This document shows positions 1,232-59,630 of a stretch of DNA of 64,000 bases, piece by piece (positions within the stretch are counted from its first letter, which is position 1; every line of letters begins with the position of its first letter). Both the position numbers and the translations under genes were made by a program. The notes below the pieces were generated by a model that saw only the letters and a program-made list of their open reading frames with translations, was not told the origin of the DNA and ran no database searches. The DNA is from Leucoraja ocellata (Eukaryota), in contig JAWMAR010000502.1 in NCBI GenBank assembly GCA_036785375.1, positions 1,116,001 to 1,180,000 of the forward strand, given 5' to 3'.

Positions 1232-1595
1232 AATGTCCTGGGTCTTCTCCAATTCCAGAGTGAGACTGCATGCAAACTGGAGGAACAGCACCTTACATTA
1301 CACTTGAGTAACTTACAACCCAATCGTAAGAACATTGACATTAGACAGAAAATGCAGGGGTAACTCAGTGGGTCAGGCAATAACTCCGGAGAAAAGGAAT
1401 AGGTGATGTTTCGGATTGGAACCCTTCTTCAGACTGAACATTGAATTCTCTAATTTTAGGTTTCTAACAAACTCCCCTCCCACTTCTTCTCCTAGCTCCC
1501 TCCACTTTCTGTACCCCCCCTCTCCCCCATACCCCACCTGGACGCACCTATTTCTTCCCTCTCCCATTCCTTCCTATCACTTCACAATTTCTGTG
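1232..1595 (+). mobile_element. Old Penelope-like element 3' fragment (end of GIY-YIG plus pyrimidine tract), interrupted at 1339-1435
   Basis: Encodes VLGLLQFQSETACKLEEQHL, homologous to the GIY-YIG C-terminus at 6225-6965. Confidence 0.8.
1339..1435 (-). mobile_element. 97-bp hammerhead-headed PLE terminal fragment with 9-bp TSD
   Basis: TSD GAACATTGA at 1330-1338 and 1436-1444. Minus strand starts AGTCTGAAGAAGGGTTCCAATCCGAAACATCACC. Confidence 0.8.
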
Positions 1596-5890: not shown

Positions 5891-6017
5891 AACCTGAACT
5901 TGGAAAATGTAATGTTCATATAATTGGGTTGTAGACCACCCAGGCAGAATGTGAGGTTTTGTTCCTCTAGTTTGTATTTGGCCTCACCCTAGCAATGAAG
6001 ACTGAAGACAGATAGGT

Positions 6018-7083
6018 TACACAGAAAAGCTGGAGAAACTCAGCGGGTGCAGCAGCATCTATGGAGCGAAGGAAATAGGCAACGTTTCGGGCCGAAACCC
6101 TTCTTCAGACTGATCAGGGGTGGGGGTGGGTGGGGACAAGAAAGGGAAAAGGAGGAGTAGCCGGAAGGCTGGAGGGTGGGAGGAGACAGCAGGGGAGCTG
6201 AGGAAGGGGAGGAGACAGCAAGGACTAACAGAATTGGGAGAAGTCGATGTTCATGCCCCCGGGGTGCAGACTCCCCAAACGGAATATGAGGTGCTGTTCC
6301 TCCAATTTCCGGTGCTGCTCGCTGTGGCCATGGAGGAGACCCAGGACAGAGAGGTCAGAGGCGGAGTGGGAGGGGGAGTTGAAGTGCTGAGCCACCGGGA
6401 GGTCAGCTAGGTTATTGCGGACCGAGCGGAGGTGTTCGGCGAAACGATCGCCCAACCTCCGCTTGGTCTCACCGATATAGATCTGCTGACATCTAGAGCA
6501 GCGGACGCAATAGATGAGGTTGGAAGAGATGCAGGTAAACCTCTGTCGCACCTGGAACGATTGCTTGGGTCCCTGAAAGGAGTTGAGGGGGGAGGTAAAG
6601 GGACAAGTGTTGCATCTGCTGCGGCCGCAAGGGAAAGTGCCCGGGGAGGGGGTGGACCGAGAGGGAAGGGAAGAATTGACAAGGGAGTTATGGAGGGAGC
6701 GGTCTTTGCGGAAGGCAGATATGGGGGGAGATGGGAAGATGTGGCTAGTAGTGGGGTCACGTTGGAGGTGGCGAAACTGACGGAGGATTATTTTTTGTAT
6801 GTGATGGCTGGTGGGGTGAAAGGTGAGGACTAGGGGGACTCGGCCCTTGTTGCGAGTGCGGGGATGGGGAGAGAGAGCAGTGTTGCGGGGTATGGAAGAG
6901 ACCCTGGTGCGAGCCTCATTTATGGTGGAGGAGGGGAACCCCCGTTCCCTGAATAGTGAGGACATTTCAGATGTCCTGGTGTGGAACGCCTCATCCGTGG
7001 AGCAGATGCGACGTAGACGGAGGAATTGGGAGTAGGGGATGGAGTCCTTACAGGAAGCAGGGTGGGAAGAAGTGTAGTCCAGA
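6018..7083 (-). mobile_element. Young 5'-truncated Neptune-type Penelope-like retroelement (RT thumb, Cys linker, GIY-YIG endonuclease, terminal repeat)
   Basis: ORF 6225-6965 has a CGRSRCNTC linker and LIYCVRCSRCQQIYIGET...RFAEH...AQHF...EEQHLI. 15-bp TSD TGAAGACAGATAGGT at 6003-6017 and 7084-7098. Confidence 0.92.
6077..6112 (-). ncRNA. Minimal type I hammerhead ribozyme motif in the PLE terminal repeat
   Basis: CAGT-CTGAAGA-A-GGGT(TTCG)GCCC-GAAA-CG-TT-GCC: CUGANGA and GAAA core boxes, stem II with a UUCG loop, palindromic AACGTT in place of stem III. Activity not shown. Confidence 0.72.
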
Positions 7084-8004
7084 TGAAGACAGATAGGTCA
7101 GTATGGGAATGGGAAGTGGATTGGAAAAGGCGTGCAACCAGGAAGTCAGGATGGCCACTGCGGACAGAGTACAGGTGTTCCATAAAATAGTCACTAATAG
7201 TTGATTGGTCAAGCTGATGTAGAGAGCACTGAATGCAGGAGATAAAATTAAAGGAGGTGCATTTGAACCTTCGCCTGACCTGGTTGGCTCCCTGGTTGGT
7301 GGAGAGGGTGGAGATATAGAGACCCCCCGTTATTAAAATTGTAGATATTGTAATCTTATTATGTAACATATATGGTGATGTGATTTTAATTTTGATAATC
7401 TTTGTATTAAACTGTATTAAAGATTATTTCAGTACATAACTTTGAAAGTGTCCTACTTTTCTGCTAAATAATGGACAAATTATTGAAAAATATTATCAAA
7501 GCTGATCCGATTGAAAAAGCGCTTTCACTAGAATCAAGAGGTTTAGTTCCTTGTGAAATGGCTCAATCAAGGCACAATACTCCCGTTGTTATGCTGATTA
7601 AACCACTCACAACATAGCGCACCAGTTGGAAAAAATTTACACAACAAGATCACTCGGTCAATTGAATCACTTGAGAATGGCTTTCCACGATAGTCTACAT
7701 GGAATAAATTCTCAATAACTCATCATTTGAGACCCAGGGGCATCAAATGAATATGCAAATATTCCAAGATAAAAAGTTATATGACAGTTTTGAACGTTCA
7801 TTTAGGTTCCGAAGAAAACTAAAATACACTAAAGATTTGATCACATGTTAAAAAAGTAGAGATCTTGGCAATCTCTGTTAATGCTGTCATCTCTTTGAAT
7901 GTAATAGGATGCTCGCCCAATTATATTTTTGATAACAGCGACACCTTGCATTTATATATGTTAAATATCAGACATTATCCCAAGATTCACATGGGCCATG
8001 TTAG

Positions 8005-10559: not shown

Positions 10560-11915
10560 GAAAGAAATACAAAGTGCTGCAGGCACTCAGTGGGTCCAGC
10601 AGCATCTCTGGTGGGATTGTGCAGGTGGCCTTTCGGGTCAGGACCCTTCTTCAAACTTATTGTAGAGGGGAGAAAGATGGAAAAGAGGGTCAAGGGCAGA
10701 GCAAAGCCTGGCAAGTGATGGATGCAAATGGTTGAGAGGGGATGTGACCTGCAGATGAGTATAGTAGGTGATAGTAGATAAAGCTAAAGGTGGAAAGGAG
10801 ACAAAAGGGTGTCAGGAGTGGAAGAATTAAATATACAACCAGAGAAAGGGATATGGGTTTAGTTTAGTAGAGAGATGCAGCGCGGAAACAGGCCCTTCTG
10901 CCCACCGAGTCCACACCGGCCATCGATCCCCGCACATTAACACTCACACACTAGGGACAATTTTACATTTATATATTATACCAAGCTAATTATCCTACAA
11001 CCCTGTATGCCTTTGGAGTGTGGGAGGAAACCGAAGATCTTGGAGAAAATGGGAAGAATGTACAAACTCCATACATACAGCACTCATAGTCAGGATCGAA
11101 CCCGGGACCCGCGTCTCTGGTGCTGTAAAGCAGCAACTCCACCGCTGCGCCACCGTGCCGCCCAGGTGAAAAGAGGATGGGAGAGAATGGAAAGAGGGGA
11201 TTAAAAGGGAAATGGGGGTCTCGGGGATGGGAGATAAGAAAGTGAGGGTGGGAGCAAGGTGATTAGAGGTGGTGGTGGGAGGAGCACAGGAAAGGGGGGG
11301 GGGGGGGTGGTAGAAGTTGAAATTAGAGAATTCAATGGCATACCGTTGGGATGCAAGCTACCCAAGTGGAATATGAGGTGCTGTTCCTTCAGTTTGCACA
11401 TGGCCTCAGTAACCATTTTGCCAAATACGTCTCATCCGCCAAGGTCTGCTAGATCTCCCGGTTGCTCACATTTTAATTCCTATTCCCATTCCTATACTGG
11501 TCTTTCTGTCCTTTGCCTATTCCATTGTCAGAGCAAGGCAACATGCAAACTGGAGGAACAGCACCTCATATTTGTATGGAACGCAAGGGTATGAACACTG
11601 AATTCTCCAATTTCAAATAATAAACCCCTTCTCTTTCCCATGCCCCCCCCCCCCCCCCCCCCCGCACATTACTCCCACACATCCAATTATCCTGCTGCTT
11701 TCCCCTCCTTTGTACACTCATTGCCAATTCCCGTCTTTCATTCCCCCTCACTCCCATTCTCTTCCACCTCTATCCCTCACTTCACCTTTATATGTCACTC
11801 GACCCAACTGCCATTCAAACTCTCCCATCACCCGTATCCATCTGCTGGGCCTGCTGAGTTCCTCAGCACTTTGTGTTAAGCTCAAGATTTCAGTGTCAGC
11901 TTCTTGTGACTCCAG
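10560..11915. mobile_element. Inverted pair of decayed PLE 3' ends (minus 10560-11410, plus 11430-11915) with a nested SINE
   Basis: KLKEQHLIFHLGSLHPNGM on minus and CKLEEQHLIF on plus; degenerate hammerhead at 10623-10657 (-). Confidence 0.75.
10857..11163 (-). mobile_element. HE1-like tRNA-derived SINE
   Basis: A and B boxes, central domain, CR1-like 3' end with (CTAAA)n. Confidence 0.85.
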
Positions 11916-13076: not shown

Positions 13077-13160
13077 GGTTTCGGCCCGAATCGTTGCCTA
13101 TTTCCTTCGCTCCATAGATGCTGCTGCACCCGCTGAGTTTCTCCAGCTTTTTTGTGTAAC
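13077..13160 (+). mobile_element. 84-bp PLE terminal fragment starting inside the hammerhead, 16-bp TSD
   Basis: TSD CTTCATTGGTTTTAAG at 13061-13076 and 13161-13176. Insert reads GGTTTCGGCCCGAATCGTTGCC...TTTGTGTAAC. Confidence 0.88.
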
Positions 13161-13924: not shown

Positions 13925-14130
13925 CCACAATGTGCTGGTGTAACTCACCAGGTCAGGCAGCATCTCTGGAGAACATACATAGATGACATTTGGGTCGCGA
14001 CCCTTCTTCACATTGAGTGTGAAACGTCACCCATCCATGTTCTCCAGAGGTGCCACCTGACTGCTGAGTTAGCCCAGCACTTTGTGTAATTTTGTATATT
14101 AACCAGCATTTGCACTTCCTTGTTTCTATG
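13925..14130. mobile_element. Head-to-head inverted PLE terminal repeats joined at the hammerhead motif
   Basis: The minus arm ends GGGTCGCGACCCTTCTTCAC and the plus arm starts GAAACGTCACCC; the arms are reverse complements. Confidence 0.75.
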
Positions 14131-14242
14131 ACTCTTGAAAAATACCTGGTCCAGACAACCCAATGTGGAGACGTATCATGCAGGAAATATCATATCATTA
14201 TGGTTCTGCAGGGAAAATATGTGAGTGGAACTTATCCAAAGG

Positions 14243-33347: not shown

Positions 33348-33856
33348 CTGCATCTGCTGCTCTAGATGTCAGCTGATCTACATCAGTGAGACTAAGCGGA
33401 GGTTGGGCGATCGTTCAGTCCGCAAGAACCTACCTGACCTCCCGGTGGCTCAGCACTTCAACTCCCCCTCCCATTCCCAATCCGACCTCTCTGTCCTGGG
33501 TCTCCTCCATTGCCAGAGTGAGCAACACAGGAAATTGGAGGAACAGCACCTCATATTCCGCTTGGGGAGCCTGCATCCGGCGGGCATGAACATTGAATTC
33601 TCCCAATTTTGTTAGCCCTTGCTGTCTCCTCCCCTTCCTTAGCCCTTGAGCTGTCTCCTCCCATCCCCCAGCCCTCGGGCTCCTCCTTCTCCTTTCTCCT
33701 TCCTTCTCCCCGCCACCCCCTATCAGTCTGAAGAAGGGTTTCGGCCCGAAACATTATCTATTTCCTTCGCTCCATAGATGCTGCTGCACCCGCTGAGTTT
33801 CTCCAGCATTTTTTTGTATCTTCGATTTTCCAGCATCTGCAGCTCCTTCTTGAACA
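33348..33856 (+). mobile_element. 5'-truncated PLE (GIY-YIG end plus terminal repeat with hammerhead at 33724-33760) inserted in an old CR1
   Basis: 14-bp TSD TATTCTCTTCCGGA at 33334-33347 and 33857-33870; encodes LPVAQHFNSPSH...EEQHLIFRLG. Confidence 0.9.
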
Positions 33857-39164: not shown

Positions 39165-39572
39165 ATGAGTTAAGAGAGTCAAGAGTGTTTTTATTGTCAT
39201 ATGTCCCGAATGGGACAATGAAATTCTTATTTGCTGCAGCACAACGAATATGTGAATGTATAAACATAGTACATAATGGGGGAAGAGAAAAAAAGAAAAA
39301 AATCAATAAATAACAAATATAGTGCAATAATAATATAGTCTTTTGCATTTCAGAGGTCAGAGCTCAGAGCTAATTCATTGTTGTGTTTAATAGTCTGATG
39401 GCTGTAGGGAAGAAGCTGTTCCTGAAGGTACACAAAAATGCTGGAGAAACTCAGCAGGTGCAGCAGCATCTATGGAGCGAAGGAAATAGGCAATGTTTCG
39501 GGCCAAAACCCTTCTTCAGTTGTTCCTGAACCTGGACGTTACAGTTTTCAGGCTCCTGTACCTTCATCCTGA
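39165..39572 (-). mobile_element. Rex1/Babar 3' end with a nested PLE mini-insertion
   Basis: Minus strand encodes RRYRSLKTVTSRFRNSFFPTAIRLLN across the insertion; 3' stem TGTCCC-ATTC-GGGACA then TGACAATAAA. Confidence 0.82.
39427..39520 (-). mobile_element. 94-bp hammerhead-headed PLE terminal fragment with 10-bp TSD
   Basis: TSD TGTTCCTGAA at 39417-39426 and 39521-39530. Minus strand starts (A)CTGAAGAAGGGTTTTGGCCCGAAACATTGCC. Confidence 0.88.
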
Positions 39573-40523: not shown

Positions 40524-40669
40524 GCTGCTGCTGCACTTTTCCCTTTCTTGTCCCCACCCACCCCCGCCCCCGATCAGTCTGAAGAAGGGTTTCGGCCCGA
40601 AACGTTGCCTATTTCCTTCGCTCCATAGATGCTGCTGCACCCGCTGAGTTTCTCCAGCTTTTTTGTGTA
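40524..40669 (+). mobile_element. 146-bp PLE terminal fragment with intact hammerhead motif (40575-40610), 10-bp TSD
   Basis: TSD ACCCCCTGAT at 40514-40523 and 40670-40679; contains CAGTCTGAAGAAGGGTTTCGGCCCGAAACGTTGCC. Confidence 0.88.
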
Positions 40670-41139
40670 ACCCCCTGATCCCTTTTGCCACAAGTGCCAC
40701 ATCTAACTCCCTCTTAAATATAGCCAATGAACCGGCCTCAACTACCTTCTGTGGCAGAGAATTCCAGAGATTCACCACTCTCTGTGTGAAAAAAAAAAAA
40801 AAAAATCTCGGTCCTAAAAGACTTCCCCCTTATCCTTAAACTGTGACCCCTTGTTCTGGACTTCCCCAACATCGGGAACAATCTTCCTGCATCTAGCCTG
40901 TCCAGCCCCTTAAGAATTTTGTAAGTTTCAATAAGATCCCCCCTCAATCTTCTAAATTCTAGCGAGTACGAGCAGAGTCTATCCAGTCTTTCTTTATATG
41001 AAAGTCCTGCCATCCCAGGAATCAGTCTGGTGAACCTTCTCTGTACTCCCCCTATGGCAAGAATGTCTTTCCTCAGATTAGGAGACCAAAACTGTACACA
41101 ATACTCCAGGTGTGGTCTCACCATGGCCCTGTACAAGGC

Positions 41140-48286: not shown

Positions 48287-51200
48287 GAGTCAAGAGTCAT
48301 GAGAGTTTTATTGTCATGTGGCCCAGATAGCACAAATAAATTCTTACTTGCTGCAGCACAACAGAATATGTAAACATAGTACAGTACGGGAGATAAAGTT
48401 CAGTGTGTCTATAGACCGTAGACCATATATATACATAATAAATAAACAGATAAAGTGCAATAGTAATAATAGACTTATTGTTCAGAGTTTATTTGATGTA
48501 ATGTTTAATACCCTGATGGCTGTGGGAAAGAAGCTGTTCCTGAACCTGGATGTTACAGATTTCAGGCTCCTGTACCTTCTTCCTGATCGCAACGGAGAGA
48601 TGAGTGTGTGGCCAGGATGGTGTGGGTCTTTGATGATGCTGGCAGTCTTTTTGAGGCAGCGACTGCGATAGCTCCCTCCGATGGTGGGGAGGTCAGAACC
48701 GGTGATGGACTGGGCAGTGGTCACAACTTTCTGCAGTCTTTTCTGCTCCTGGACGTTCAAGTTGCCGTACCAGGCCACGATGCAACCAGTCAGTATGCTC
48801 TCTACTGTGCATCTGTAGAAGTTCGGGAGATCCCTCCTTGACATACCGACTCTCCGTAATCTTCTCAGGAAGTAGAGGTGCTGATTACATATTTCCACCA
48901 ATAAGGACAGACTGTGGCCTGTACATGAGGAAGTTGTGGATCCAATTGCAGAGGGTGCGCAGAGACCCAGATCCGTGACCTTGGTAACCAGCTTGGAGGG
49001 GATGATGGTATTAAACGCCGAGCTGTAGTCTATGAACAACTCCGCCGCCTCCGCGCATTCCATTCTCTAGGCCCTCAACCCTTCATCTTCACCATGGACG
49101 TCCAGTCACTCTACACCTCCATCCCCCACCAGGATGGTCTCAAAGCCCTCCGGTTCTTCCTCGACCAGAGGAGCAACGTATACCCGGCCACTGACACTCT
49201 CCTCCGCCTAGCGGAGCTGGTCCTTACTCTTAATAACTTCACGTTTGACTCCTCCCATTTCCTCCAAACACAAGGCGTAGCTATGGGCACACGTATGGGC
49301 CCCAGCTACGCCTGCCTCTTTTTCGGGTACGTTGAACAATCCTTGTTCAATACGTACCAGGGCCCCATCCCCGACCTCTACCTCCGTTACATCGACGACT
49401 GCTTTGGTGCCACCTCCTGCACCCACACACAACTGACTGACTTCATCCACTTCACCACCAATTTCCATCCGGCACTCAAATACACCTGGACTATTTCCAA
49501 CACTTCCCTACCATTCCTTGACCTATCTCCATCGCAGGTGATAGACTCCTGACCGACATCCACTACAAACCCACTGACTCCCATGGCTATCTGGACTACA
49601 CTTCTTCCCACCCTGCTTCCTGTAAGGACTCCATCCCCTACTCCAAATTCCTCCGTCTACGCCGCATCTGCTCCCAGGATGAGGCGTTCCACACCAGGGC
49701 ATCTGAAATGTCCTAATTCTTCAGGGAACGGGGGGGTTCCCCTCCTCCACCATAGATGGGGCTCGCACCAGGGTCTCTTCCATACCCCGCAACACAGCTC
49801 TCTCTCTCCATCCCCGCACTCGCAACAAGGGCAGAGTCCCCCTAGTCCTCACCTTTCACCCCACCAGCCGTCACATACAACAAGTAATCCTCCGTCAGTT
49901 TCGCCACTTCCAACGTGACCCCACCACTCGCCACATCTTCCCATCTCCTCCCATGTCTGCCTTCCGCAAAGACCACTCCCTCCGCAACTCCCTTATCAAT
50001 TCTTCCCTTCCCTTCCGTACCACCCCTTCCCCGGGCACTTTCCGTTGCAACCGCAAGAAATGCAACACCTGTCCCTTCACCTCCCCCCTCGACTCCATTC
50101 AAGGACAAAAGCAGTCGTTCCAAGGGCGACAGAGATTCACCTGTATCTCCTCCAACCTCATCTACTGCATCCGCTGCTCTAGATGTCAGCTGATCTACAT
50201 CGGTGAGACTAAGCGGAGGTTGGGCGATCGTTTCGCCGAACACCTCCGCTCGGTCCGCAAGAACCTACCTGACCTCCCGGTGGCTCAGCACTTCAACGCC
50301 CCCTCCCACTCCCCAGATGACCTCTCTGTCCTGGGTCTCCTCCATGGCCAGAGTGAGCAACACTGGAAATTGGAGGAACAGCACCTCATATTCCGCTTGG
50401 GGAGTCTGCATCCTGATGGCATGAACATTGAATTCTCCCAATTTTGTTAGCCCTTGCTGTCTCCTCCCCTTCCTCAGCCCTCGGGCTGTCTCCTCCCATT
50501 CCTCAGCCCCCGGGCTCCTCCTCCTCCTTTTTCCTTCCTTCTCCCCGCCACCCCCTATCAGTCTGAAGAAGGGTTTCGGCCCGAAACATTGCCTATTTCC
50601 TTCGCTCCATAGATGCTGCTGCACCCGTTGAGTTTCTCCAGCATTTTTGTGTACCGTCTATGAACAAAAGCCTGACATACGAGTTTTTGTTGTCCAAGTG
50701 GTCCAGAGCGGAGTGGAGAGCCAGTGAGATTGCATCTATTGTTGCCTGTTGTGGCAGTAAGTGAACTGCAGTGGGTCGAGGTTCTTGTCTGGCACCGAGG
50801 TTCTTGTCTGGAACTCTGGCACTGGCCACTAAATCAGCTGCCCTGGACTTTTTATGACTGTTTTTACTGTATTTAATGTTGCTGTTTTTACCTGCACTTA
50901 TTAACTATTCGTACTGTTTTATCAGGGACTGGATTGTTTTTATTGTTTTTATTATGTGTGAAATGTTTAAGTTTTATGTGCGATGCTCCGGTATTCCCTG
51001 AGAAACGTCTTCTCATTTTGCACTGTACACTGCTTTGCAAGATGACAATAAAGGTTGATTGATTGATTGTCGAGGTAGAAGTTGATATGCGCCATAATCA
51101 ACCTCTCAAAGCACTTCATCACCACAGACGTTAGTGCCACTGGTTGATAGTCGTTGAGGCACGTCACCTTGCTCTTCTTGGGCACCGGGATTATTGATGC

Positions 51201-52376: not shown

Positions 52377-52540
52377 TACACAAGAAACTGCAGACGCTGG
52401 AATCTTGAGCAAAACACAATGTTCTATTGTGGGAATAGATAAGTCTGAAGAAGGATCCCGACCCAAAACATCGCCTATCCATTCCCTCTGCCGATGCTCC
52501 CTGAACCACTGAGTTACTCCAGCATTTTATGTTTTGCCCT
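52377..52540. mobile_element. Inverted PLE terminal-repeat fragments with the junction at the hammerhead
   Basis: Minus arm 52377-52425; plus arm starts AGTCTGAAGAAGGATCCCGACCCAAAACATC at 52442. Confidence 0.7.
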
Positions 52541-59409: not shown

Positions 59410-59630
59410 AATCTCACTCAATTTTAGATTATCTACAAACGCGTCTCTGTATGAAAGAGATTTATTTGTAGATAATCTAAAATCTGAAGAAGGGTCTCGA
59501 CCCAAAACATCACCCATTCCTTCTCTCCAGAGATGCTGCCTGTCCTGTTGATTTACTCCAGCTTTTTGTATCTTTCTTCAGTTTAAACCAGCATCTGCAG
59601 TTCCTCCCTACAATAAAATTGAGTGAGGTT
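59410..59630. repeat. 30-bp-arm hairpin interrupted by a PLE mini-insertion
   Basis: Left arm 59410-59439; right arm 59465-59483 plus 59620-59630; 29 of 30 positions complementary after removing the insert. Confidence 0.85.
59484..59613 (+). mobile_element. 130-bp hammerhead-headed PLE terminal fragment, TSD TAAAAT
   Basis: Begins exactly CTGAAGAAGGGTCTCGACCCAAAACATCACCC; TSD at 59478-59483 and 59614-59619. Confidence 0.85.

What the first reader, a model, noticed from the sequence alone, without database searches (positions are those of the whole stretch)
39427..39520. Stand-alone 84-130 bp insertions that begin at the ribozyme core: a candidate hammerhead-headed mini-retroposon
Seen: four independent insertions with their own TSDs consist only of the hammerhead and its downstream tail. 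They are 1339-1435 (starts 3 nt before CTGA), 13077-13160 (starts at stem II), 39427-39520 (1 nt before CTGA) and 59484-59613 (exactly at CTGA). Two inversion junctions (about 14012-14021 and 52442) also fall at the core. They come from at least two subfamilies. Random 5' truncation of a multi-kb element would not obviously cluster in a 10-nt window. Canonical type I cleavage would leave the core on the upstream product, so this 5' boundary is not the cleavage site. Inference: either reverse transcription stalls or switches strand at the folded (dimeric) ribozyme, or a discrete ~100-nt ribozyme RNA is mobilised in trans by the Neptune RT/GIY-YIG protein.
Basis: partly seen in the sequence, partly recalled or inferred. 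Interest (0 to 1): 0.8.

Follow-up and report, generated by a model that had tools for sequence, protein, structure and literature searches.

The report
Penelope retrotransposon leader run-off stubs
These ~95-130-base inserts are real and very common stubs of a known Penelope-type jumping gene, not a separate ribozyme element; they stop sharply just in front of the ribozyme motif, likely because copying starts inside the front end of the element's RNA and runs off it, which would make this poorly understood copying step testable.

Summary
Confirmed and genome-wide. All four insertions have TSDs (6-16 bp). In 1.6 Mb of unbiased tiles, 33 of 44 young copies reaching the hammerhead core stop at -13..+2 (C of CTGA = 0): 9-fold the downstream and about 60-fold the upstream stop rate. 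They are stubs of an RT/GIY-YIG Penelope-like element with a Neptune-type linker and form no clade of their own. Their 3' ends are two fixed sites (+92, +128), like the two internal priming sites shown for Anolis Poseidon. Full-length copies start at the same boundary (6 of 14). Inverted pairs join one +92 and one +128 arm (70 of 80). Stopping is shared within an event: re-primed cDNAs stop again (19 of 19), and partners of long arms never stop (0 of 5). Best reading (0.55): internal priming in the RNA's 5' leader, then run-off at the RNA's 5' end. A protein roadblock at the splice-acceptor-like pyrimidine tract is the main rival. No RNA end was shown, and the cap signal is mixed. The scan has noted this family many times before, in this and other genomes.

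The parts
39427..39520 (-). Stub: one extra A, minimal hammerhead core from C3 (39519), tail to priming site 1 (about +92, at 39427)
39417..39426 (.). TSD copy TGTTCCTGAA
39521..39530 (.). TSD copy TGTTCCTGAA
39492..39519 (-). Minimal type I hammerhead motif: CUGAAGA, extra A, 3-bp stem II, GAAA, stem III ACAU (ACGU in intact copies); predicted cleavage after 39492; stem I 5' strand missing, so predicted dead
   Evidence: sequence; motif as defined in PMC4209133; no Rfam hammerhead hit
1339..1435 (-). Older-subfamily stub, -3 to site 1, 9-bp TSD, nested in an older PLE GIY-YIG end
13077..13160 (+). Young stub, +8/+9 to site 1, 16-bp TSD
59484..59613 (+). Older stub, 0 to site 2 (about +128), 6-bp TSD inside a host hairpin
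13927..14133 (.). Head-to-head pair: minus arm from site 1 to the core, plus arm from about +19 to site 2; about 11-bp TSD; outer ends approximate
52378..52532 (.). Head-to-head pair: inverted site-2 arm ending near +28, forward arm from -2/-3 to site 1; about 13-bp TSD with one mismatch; outer ends approximate
6018..7084 (-). Long 5'-truncated parent copy: linker CGRSRCNTC, GIY-YIG, pyrimidine tract, core at 6108, ends at site 1; 14-bp TSD
49040..50655 (+). Long 5'-truncated parent copy (RT C-terminus to site 1), core at 50563; 5' end approximate
33349..33856 (+). 5'-truncated parent copy, core at 33728, ends at site 2; 14-bp TSD
40536..40672 (+). Copy reaching about -40 into the pyrimidine tract, core at 40579, preceded by a short re-primed tail piece
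50500..50562 (+). Pyrimidine tract ending in ATCAGT just before the core: both Initiator-like and 3'-splice-acceptor-like (consensus motifs recalled); ATCAGT in 20 of 34 GIY-YIG-bearing copies of all ages

Best explanation
The inserts are TSD-flanked stubs of an endonuclease-bearing Penelope-like element, likely made when its reverse transcriptase primes inside the 5' leader of the element's RNA and runs off an inferred RNA 5' end just in front of the hammerhead core. Shown: the parent's RT, linker and GIY-YIG; two fixed 3' ends (+92, +128); a sharp 5' boundary near -9..+2 shared by stubs and by full-length copies; one +92 arm and one +128 arm in inverted pairs; junctions where a unit ending at the boundary is joined to other places of the element. 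Inferred: (1) the two 3' ends are RT initiation sites, by analogy with Anolis Poseidon; (2) the two nicked target strands are primed at the two sites, probably on one RNA; (3) the same sites occur twice in an RNA, in the 5' leader and in the 3' pLTR tail; (4) priming in the leader meets the RNA's physical end after 95-135 nt and gives a stub, a hairpin pair or a re-primed chimera, while priming in the 3' tail reads through the core and gives the ordinary long truncated copies; (5) the end is most likely a transcription start at the conserved ATCAGT. The ribozyme would be a landmark, not the cause.
For: Peak: 33 of 44 stop at -13..+2; genome-wide 41,296 exact 22-nt cores, 4,931 of them with a foreign base at -3 in a pattern that samples about four fifths of flanks, and 7,892 of 20,903 minus-strand cores reach the C tract (uncorrected for mutation). 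Copies found by the leader/ORF sequence alone: 30 loci, 21 independent by eye; of 14 that reach +2, 6 start at -9..+2, 8 run on to -213 or beyond, none starts in between. Inverted pairs: 70 of 80 are site 1 + site 2 (p = 2e-12 against 0.5); the site-1 arm reaches further 5' in 37 of these 70, which simple fold-back of one cDNA cannot give. Event-level sharing: in 21 distinct head-to-tail core duplications (of 30 loci; 8 were inverted joints, 1 a duplicate), 19 of 19 second passes that reach +2 end again by about -6, none enters the C tract (p = 0.004 at 25% read-through). Partner arms of ORF-bearing arms pass the core in 5 of 5 distinct cases, against 12 of 13 stopping in tile pairs (Fisher p = 0.0007). 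In L039 three arms of one insertion all end at -9. Stub units are joined to internal ORF positions within one insertion (L207, L211, L215). Untemplated bases before the boundary end in G in 14 of 23 head-to-tail junctions (by-eye count of the list; p = 0.006). Precedent: internal initiation at two adjacent sites, extension of both target strands, and no need for cleavage in Anolis PAc (PMC11167929); an internal promoter in the Penelope pLTR (PMC2377424).
Against: No RNA end was observed. The cap-like G is absent in simple TSD-flanked stubs (4 of 15 with extra bases), and the 43 of 100 G at -3 (about 31 expected) is confounded by inverted arms ending in G and by duplicates. The ends spread over about 10 nt and often lie at -4/-5, upstream of the A(-3) that an Initiator would predict. 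In D. virilis Penelope the start site lies 46 nt before a 75-nt intron whose end maps to the 5' end of helix I, so about 120 nt upstream of the core, not at it. A protein that stays bound to one RNA molecule would also give event-level sharing. The two event-level tests rest on 19 and 5 events.
Confidence: 0.55

Rival explanations
1. Roadblock: the RNA continues upstream, but a protein bound to the pyrimidine tract and CAG (-4..-2), which look like a 3' splice acceptor, stops RT on those molecules that carry it (U2AF or poly-C binders are candidates, from recall). Stubs could then come from either pLTR.
For: The tract plus CAG is conserved in long copies of all ages; in D. virilis the intron ends at the 5' end of helix I (PMC4209133); stops pile up just 3' of the tract and are rare inside it.
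Against: The block must be all-or-none per molecule to explain 19 of 19 and 0 of 5. No spliced copies: one imprecise hit genome-wide for a joint from the ORF end to the core (only that donor region was tested), and no recurring upstream exon among 100 listed flanks. G-ended additions at head-to-tail junctions fit a template end better.
Confidence: 0.2
2. A discrete short or trimmed RNA is the template: either a 5' end trimmed by an exonuclease up to the protein-bound leader, or transcripts of genomic stubs that carry an internal promoter and both priming sites and are mobilised in trans.
For: Ragged ends fit trimming. A stub that keeps -6..+128 holds the same signals as the leader, so its offspring would look the same. 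Short-to-long ratios differ between subfamilies (16 long of 36 in the youngest haplotype, 14 of 64 in the commonest; some columns p = 0.002). pLTR sequences can act in trans in Adineta (PMC3846280, passage).
Against: No short-only clade: all four major haplotypes hold long copies and nearest-neighbour clustering is not significant (p = 0.30; 93 nt, low resolution). Full-length copies share the boundary. Stubs are joined to ORF sequence, so the ORF RNA was at hand.
Confidence: 0.17
3. RT stalls or switches strand at the folded, possibly dimeric, ribozyme in the 3' pLTR.
For: A second peak at +3..+13 in inverted pairs (15 of 28) sits on stem II and its near-palindrome; minimal hammerheads are proposed to work as dimers (PMC4209133).
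Against: The main peak lies 5' of every helix. Stem I is only 2 bp and stem II 3 bp, with no covariation above shuffles. Single-copy folds are unremarkable (z -0.6 to -1.7 for the three tail-bearing copies), and 49 aligned copies give no consensus fold. The second peak is weak without an inverted partner (6 of 37), so it reads as microhomology joining.
Confidence: 0.06
4. Ordinary random 5' truncation, or an alignment artefact of a conserved core beside a divergent upstream region.
For: PLEs are heavily 5'-truncated (PMC8557442); upstream tracts differ between subfamilies.
Against: Young copies were scored against four real upstream variants; flanks at the boundary are host DNA with TSDs; only 1 of 124 stopped non-inverted arms has a GIY-YIG end upstream; p = 1e-16 for the peak.
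Confidence: 0.02

Closest known systems
Poseidon element of Anolis carolinensis, PAc (Frangieh 2024, PMC11167929; read parts 1-2 of 4: abstract, main text, start of methods)
   Same: Two adjacent internal RT start sites that define the tail; both target strands cut and extended; hammerhead cleavage not needed; genomic 3' ends on the two sites.
   Different: That paper does not describe a 5' boundary at the ribozyme, a majority of leader-sized stubs, or one site per strand. There the ORF starts inside the ribozyme; here the first in-frame ATG seen is about 35 nt after site 2, and the linker is Neptune-type.
EN+ PLE insertion units with inverted 5'-truncated pLTR, 30-40-bp tail at one end and TSD (Craig 2021, PMC8557442, passages; Arkhipova 2013, PMC3846280, passages)
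   Same: Head-to-head arms, tail on one arm only, palindromes at the joint, TSDs, partial tandems.
   Different: Those papers suggest endonuclease resolution for the tail and self-priming on an antisense template for the inversions. Here 37 of 70 pairs do not fit fold-back of one cDNA, and most units are only leader-sized.
Minimal type I hammerheads of metazoan PLEs (Cervera and de la Pena 2014, PMC4209133; read parts 1-2 of 4)
   Same: CUGANGA, extra base before stem II, GAAA, palindromic loopless stem III; thousands of single motifs and opposite-strand pairs ascribed to truncated PLEs.
   Different: Stem I is 2 bp and stem II 3 bp here; their proposed cleavage-and-circle route predicts ends at +27/+28, which are not enriched.
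Non-LTR retrozymes (Li, Clavereau and Pollet, bioRxiv 10.64898/2026.07.22.740005; read parts 1-3 of 5)
   Same: Non-coding, hammerhead-bearing, derived from PLE pLTRs; reported also from one cartilaginous fish.
   Different: Defined there as tandem repeats with a complete motif in at least two consecutive units; the four inserts are single units bounded by priming sites and the -9..+2 boundary, with broken motifs.
Minus-strand strong-stop DNA of retroviruses and LTR elements; twin priming of LINE-1 (both recalled, not read here)
   Same: Works like: priming near the 5' end with run-off; two primers from one target site giving an inversion.
   Different: The primer is target DNA, there is no tRNA site or LTR; the two arms overlap on the template instead of dividing it; no transfer to the 3' end was seen.

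Membership tests
Endonuclease-positive Penelope-like element (parent) | RT followed by C-terminal GIY-YIG in one ORF | tested here: met
   RVT_1 E = 1.2e-5 in L189 and GIY-YIG E = 0.002 at window 6228-7097, both below Pfam's cut-offs; the two proteins overlap in sequence. No intact single ORF was seen.
Endonuclease-positive Penelope-like element (parent) | pLTR / partial tandem, 30-40-bp tail, inverted truncated arm, TSD | tested here: met
   L209 tandem; tail +93..+128; inverted arms; TSDs
Neptune clade | CX2-5CxxC motif in the RT-EN linker | tested here: met
   CGRSRCNTC; motif as given in PMC8557442, which says Nematis also has a linker motif
Neptune clade | Placement in an RT tree | not tested
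   No tree was built; Neptune against Nematis is open.
Minimal type I hammerhead of PLEs | Core boxes, extra base, G-C closing stem II, palindromic stem III, stem I | tested here: met
   Met in long young copies; stem I pairs 99% and stem II 88% over 49 copies. Not met in the four stubs themselves.
Minimal type I hammerhead of PLEs | Self-cleavage | not testable with these tools
   Needs an assay; no enrichment of ends at +26..+30 in non-inverted arms (0 of 45).
Non-LTR retrozyme | Two or more tandem units each with a complete motif | tested here: not met
   The four inserts are single units. Short tandem core arrays exist elsewhere but sit inside hairpin insertions.
Non-LTR retrozyme | Unit ends set by cleavage; circular RNA | tested here: inconclusive
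   Ends do not match the cleavage site; circles could not be examined.
Self-propagating SINE-like element | Own subfamilies with diagnostic changes absent from the autonomous partner | tested here: not met
   179 short and 71 continuing copies share the major haplotypes, p = 0.30; low resolution.
Self-propagating SINE-like element | Own transcript from own promoter | tested here: inconclusive
   Reads of related organisms mostly run on into unlike flanks and show no shared start; the libraries are unsuited to the question.
Strong-stop intermediate (works-like) | Run-off at the RNA 5' end | tested here: inconclusive
   Genomic signs for; cap signal mixed; no RNA end mapped.
Strong-stop intermediate (works-like) | [quoted passage not shown] | tested here: inconclusive
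   Scarred jumps to +25..+36 never continue into the pLTR (0 of 19); a scarless transfer would be invisible.

The most novel reading that the evidence does not exclude
Penelope-like elements replicate through a retrovirus-like strong-stop step: both nicked target strands are primed in the 5' leader, one at +92 and one at +128, the cDNAs run off the capped end at the hammerhead, and long copies arise by scarless transfer to the matching 3' pLTR, which would explain how pLTR and tail are regenerated. The tens of thousands of stubs are the failed transfers.
Probability: 0.15. Interest if true: 0.8.

Novelty: new variant of a known kind. Interest (0 to 1): 0.5.

Why it matters
How PLEs replicate, why insertions carry a one-sided tail and inverted arms, and what the hammerhead does are open questions. 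This genome holds more than 41,000 exact copies of one young core, a dense record of single reactions. It gives three rules that an in vitro system like the Anolis one can test: one priming site per target strand, a hard 5' boundary at -9..+2, and sharing of that boundary within an event. It also warns that many dispersed 'hammerheads' in such genomes are dead by-products, not retrozymes.

Tried and rejected
Rfam: no hammerhead match at E <= 1. Cleavage site as the boundary: rejected. Jump to an RNA 3' end made by cleavage: junctions spread over about +25 to +55 and 0 of 19 continue into the pLTR. Fold-back of one cDNA as the general source of inverted pairs: does not fit 37 of 70. A long helix joining -2..+8 with site 2, seen in one copy's fold: not conserved. 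Spliced template with a donor at the ORF end: one imprecise hit. Expression: no RNA holder listed. Laying three raw RNA runs (1-6% of each read, probably other species) and one contig set showed no place where many molecules begin or end, and 79-93% of reads ran on into unlike sequence; this is not informative on start sites. Technical slips: one of four references was mis-indexed, and it was dropped (final numbers come); one search was partly cut from view; one search used wrong columns (redone; its third helix is not meaningful). Literature: searches listed no paper that, by title or the text I read, describes this 5' boundary or one site per strand; (strong-stop terms) gave 0 papers. Subscription papers and all supplements were not seen; the supplements of PMC11167929 and PMC4209133 may show copy ends that bear on novelty.

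Full report
Convention: positions are relative to the C of CTGA (hammerhead C3 = 0), on the element's sense strand. An 'arm' is one stretch of element sequence ending in the tail. I did not determine the organism; the genome has 3.44 Gb, and earlier scan notes call it a skate or ray (unchecked).

1. The observation. All four insertions are there. 39427-39520 has a 10-bp TSD and an empty paralogous site at 48520-48560; 13077-13160 a 16-bp TSD; 1339-1435 a 9-bp TSD; 59484-59613 a 6-bp TSD that is backed by restoration of a host hairpin. The two inversion junctions are head-to-head pairs with TSDs, in which one arm reaches the core. None of the four keeps an intact ribozyme.

2. More than chance. 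I took 160 tiles of 10 kb from 31 contigs. Among 98 young arms (88% or more alike, window excluded), 33 of the 44 that reach +2 stop by -13: 0.078 per nt, against 0.0083 at +60..+14 and 0.0013 at -14..-250. Without an inverted partner it is 21 of 31 (p = 9e-11; bin chosen after the fact). Older subfamilies behave alike: 179 of 250 arms with a core stop near it, and 27 of 124 non-inverted ones have TSDs, against 2 of 400 flank swaps. Genome-wide there are 41,296 exact 22-nt cores; 7,892 of 20,903 minus-strand ones reach the C tract; 4,931 have a foreign base at -3, and by eye about 4 of the 100 listed are point mutants of intact pLTRs. Read-through is thus about 25% in tiles and 38% or more by pattern. 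A second peak at +3..+13 is strong in inverted pairs (15 of 28) and weak otherwise (6 of 37); it sits on the near-palindrome TTTCGGCCCGAAA and reads as microhomology joining.

3. The parent. Long copies in the window (6018-7084, about 49040-50655, 33349-33856) and elsewhere encode RT, a CGRSRCNTC linker and GIY-YIG (both Pfam hits below cut-off). That fits the Neptune-type linker of PMC8557442 (passages); no tree was built. All arms end at one of two places, about +92 or about +128. This matches the two internal RT start sites and the tail of Anolis PAc (PMC11167929, parts 1-2 of 4 read). Walking up the ORF showed that full-length copies begin with the same core and tail and run on into the ORF. 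Searching with the leader/ORF part alone gave 30 loci, 21 independent by eye: 7 start inside +31..+130; of the 14 that reach +2, 6 start at -9..+2 and 8 run on to -213 or beyond (one of the 8 is the reference itself). So the stubs' boundary is also the start of non-tandem full-length copies.

4. Two primers. Of 80 inverted pairs of all ages, 70 join a +92 arm to a +128 arm (p = 2e-12 against 0.5); some of the other 10 have eroded ends. Solo young arms are 63 site 1 and 21 site 2. The site-1 arm reaches further 5' in 37 pairs, the site-2 arm in 18, with 15 ties. Fold-back of one cDNA requires the site-2 arm to reach further, so it cannot be the general route. I infer two primings, one per target strand.

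5. Stopping is shared within an event. (a) L039 has three arms in one TSD, all ending at -9. (b) Head-to-tail core duplications number 103 plus 318 pattern matches, inverted joints and local arrays included. Of 30 loci viewed, 8 were inverted joints, 1 a duplicate and 21 distinct duplications; in the 19 whose second pass reaches +2, none enters the C tract (p = 0.004 at 25% read-through). (c) Where one arm carries ORF sequence, the partner arm passes the core in 5 of 5 distinct cases that reach it (2 more stop at +81/+82; one complex locus pair was left out), against 12 of 13 stopping in tile pairs (p = 0.0007). (d) Stub units are joined to internal ORF positions inside single insertions. These points fit a template that has the priming sites at two addresses, one of them next to a physical end.

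6. What the end is. ATCAGT before the core is kept in 20 of 34 GIY-YIG-bearing copies of all ages while the tract further up varies. From recall it fits both an Initiator and, with the tract, a 3' splice acceptor. For a capped end: G ends 14 of 23 untemplated additions in head-to-tail junctions (by eye; p = 0.006) and 43 of 100 bases at -3 (confounded). Against: only 4 of 15 in simple TSD-flanked stubs; ends are ragged; and in D. virilis the start lies about 120 nt upstream, with an intron ending at helix I (PMC2377424, passages and discussion; PMC4209133, parts 1-2 of 4). No spliced copies were found for the one donor region tested. RNA reads did not settle it. Hence 0.55 for run-off at the RNA's 5' end, 0.2 for a roadblock, 0.17 for a trimmed or stub-derived RNA, and 0.06 for a stall at the ribozyme.

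7. Not a separate element. Short (179) and continuing (71) copies share the four main haplotypes and do not cluster apart (p = 0.30), though ratios differ between subfamilies. The stubs fail the tandem definition of non-LTR retrozymes (bioRxiv 10.64898/2026.07.22.740005, parts 1-3 of 5). Because a stub carries the same signals as the leader, some re-mobilisation cannot be excluded. The hairpins on C33 and C48 that share centres have outer arms of different subfamilies, which points to conversion rather than copying of whole units.

8. Novelty. The class, tail, inverted arms, minimal hammerhead, dispersed single motifs and internal priming are in print (PMC3846280 seen as passages). In the searches listed under Tried and rejected I found no description of the sharp boundary, of one site per strand, or of event-level sharing; subscription papers and supplements were not seen. 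The scan's own notes report this family often (69 notes in this genome; 39 by words in at least 13 genomes), two of the listed ones with the same reading. I had formed mine before looking (notes), and those notes are not independent evidence; one of them pointed me to PMC3846280. Verdict: a real, high-copy by-product of a known class, with mechanistic rules that are new as far as I could search and directly testable. New variant of a known kind; interest 0.5.

Noticed in passing
G000:C33 about 5.4-11.0 Mb (L273-L281); G000:C48 3.1-5.6 Mb (L283-L285); C5 (L286); C41 (L282): Hairpin insertions on one contig share the same centre (a 44-bp core duplication, sometimes amplified to 44- or 74-bp arrays; C48 has its own 79-bp version and a shared point change). 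Their outer arms belong to different subfamilies, with different TSDs and either arrangement of sites. About 60 of the first 100 listed matches lie on C33. This suggests local spread of hairpin centres by gene conversion or break repair; copying of whole hairpins fits less well (14 loci viewed).
   Followed up: partly
L214/L218, L224/L230, L086: Three independent copies end at -213 to -216 inside the GIY-YIG end; possibly a second, upstream boundary or start site.
   Followed up: no
window 52428-52480: The inverted arm ends near +28 and supplies a long complement to the sequence after the cleavage site, giving a long potential stem I that the parent lacks.
   Followed up: no
L184, L186, L189, L203 (N-terminal ORF region): The parent ORF has a variable-length 27-bp tandem repeat (PDLPNMAAG-like) before the RT.
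   Followed up: no
window 59411-59620: A host hairpin of about 70 bp (weak mir-3938 match, far below threshold) was the target of the 59484 stub.
   Followed up: partly
tiles L011-L170: About 366 tail arms per Mb (586 in 1.6 Mb); the same leader-sized unit also dominates reads and contigs of related organisms.
   Followed up: partly
window 1234-1450, 5906-7300, 11326-11616: Younger copies sit inside older GIY-YIG ends of the same family in at least two places, which may reflect target preference.
   Followed up: no
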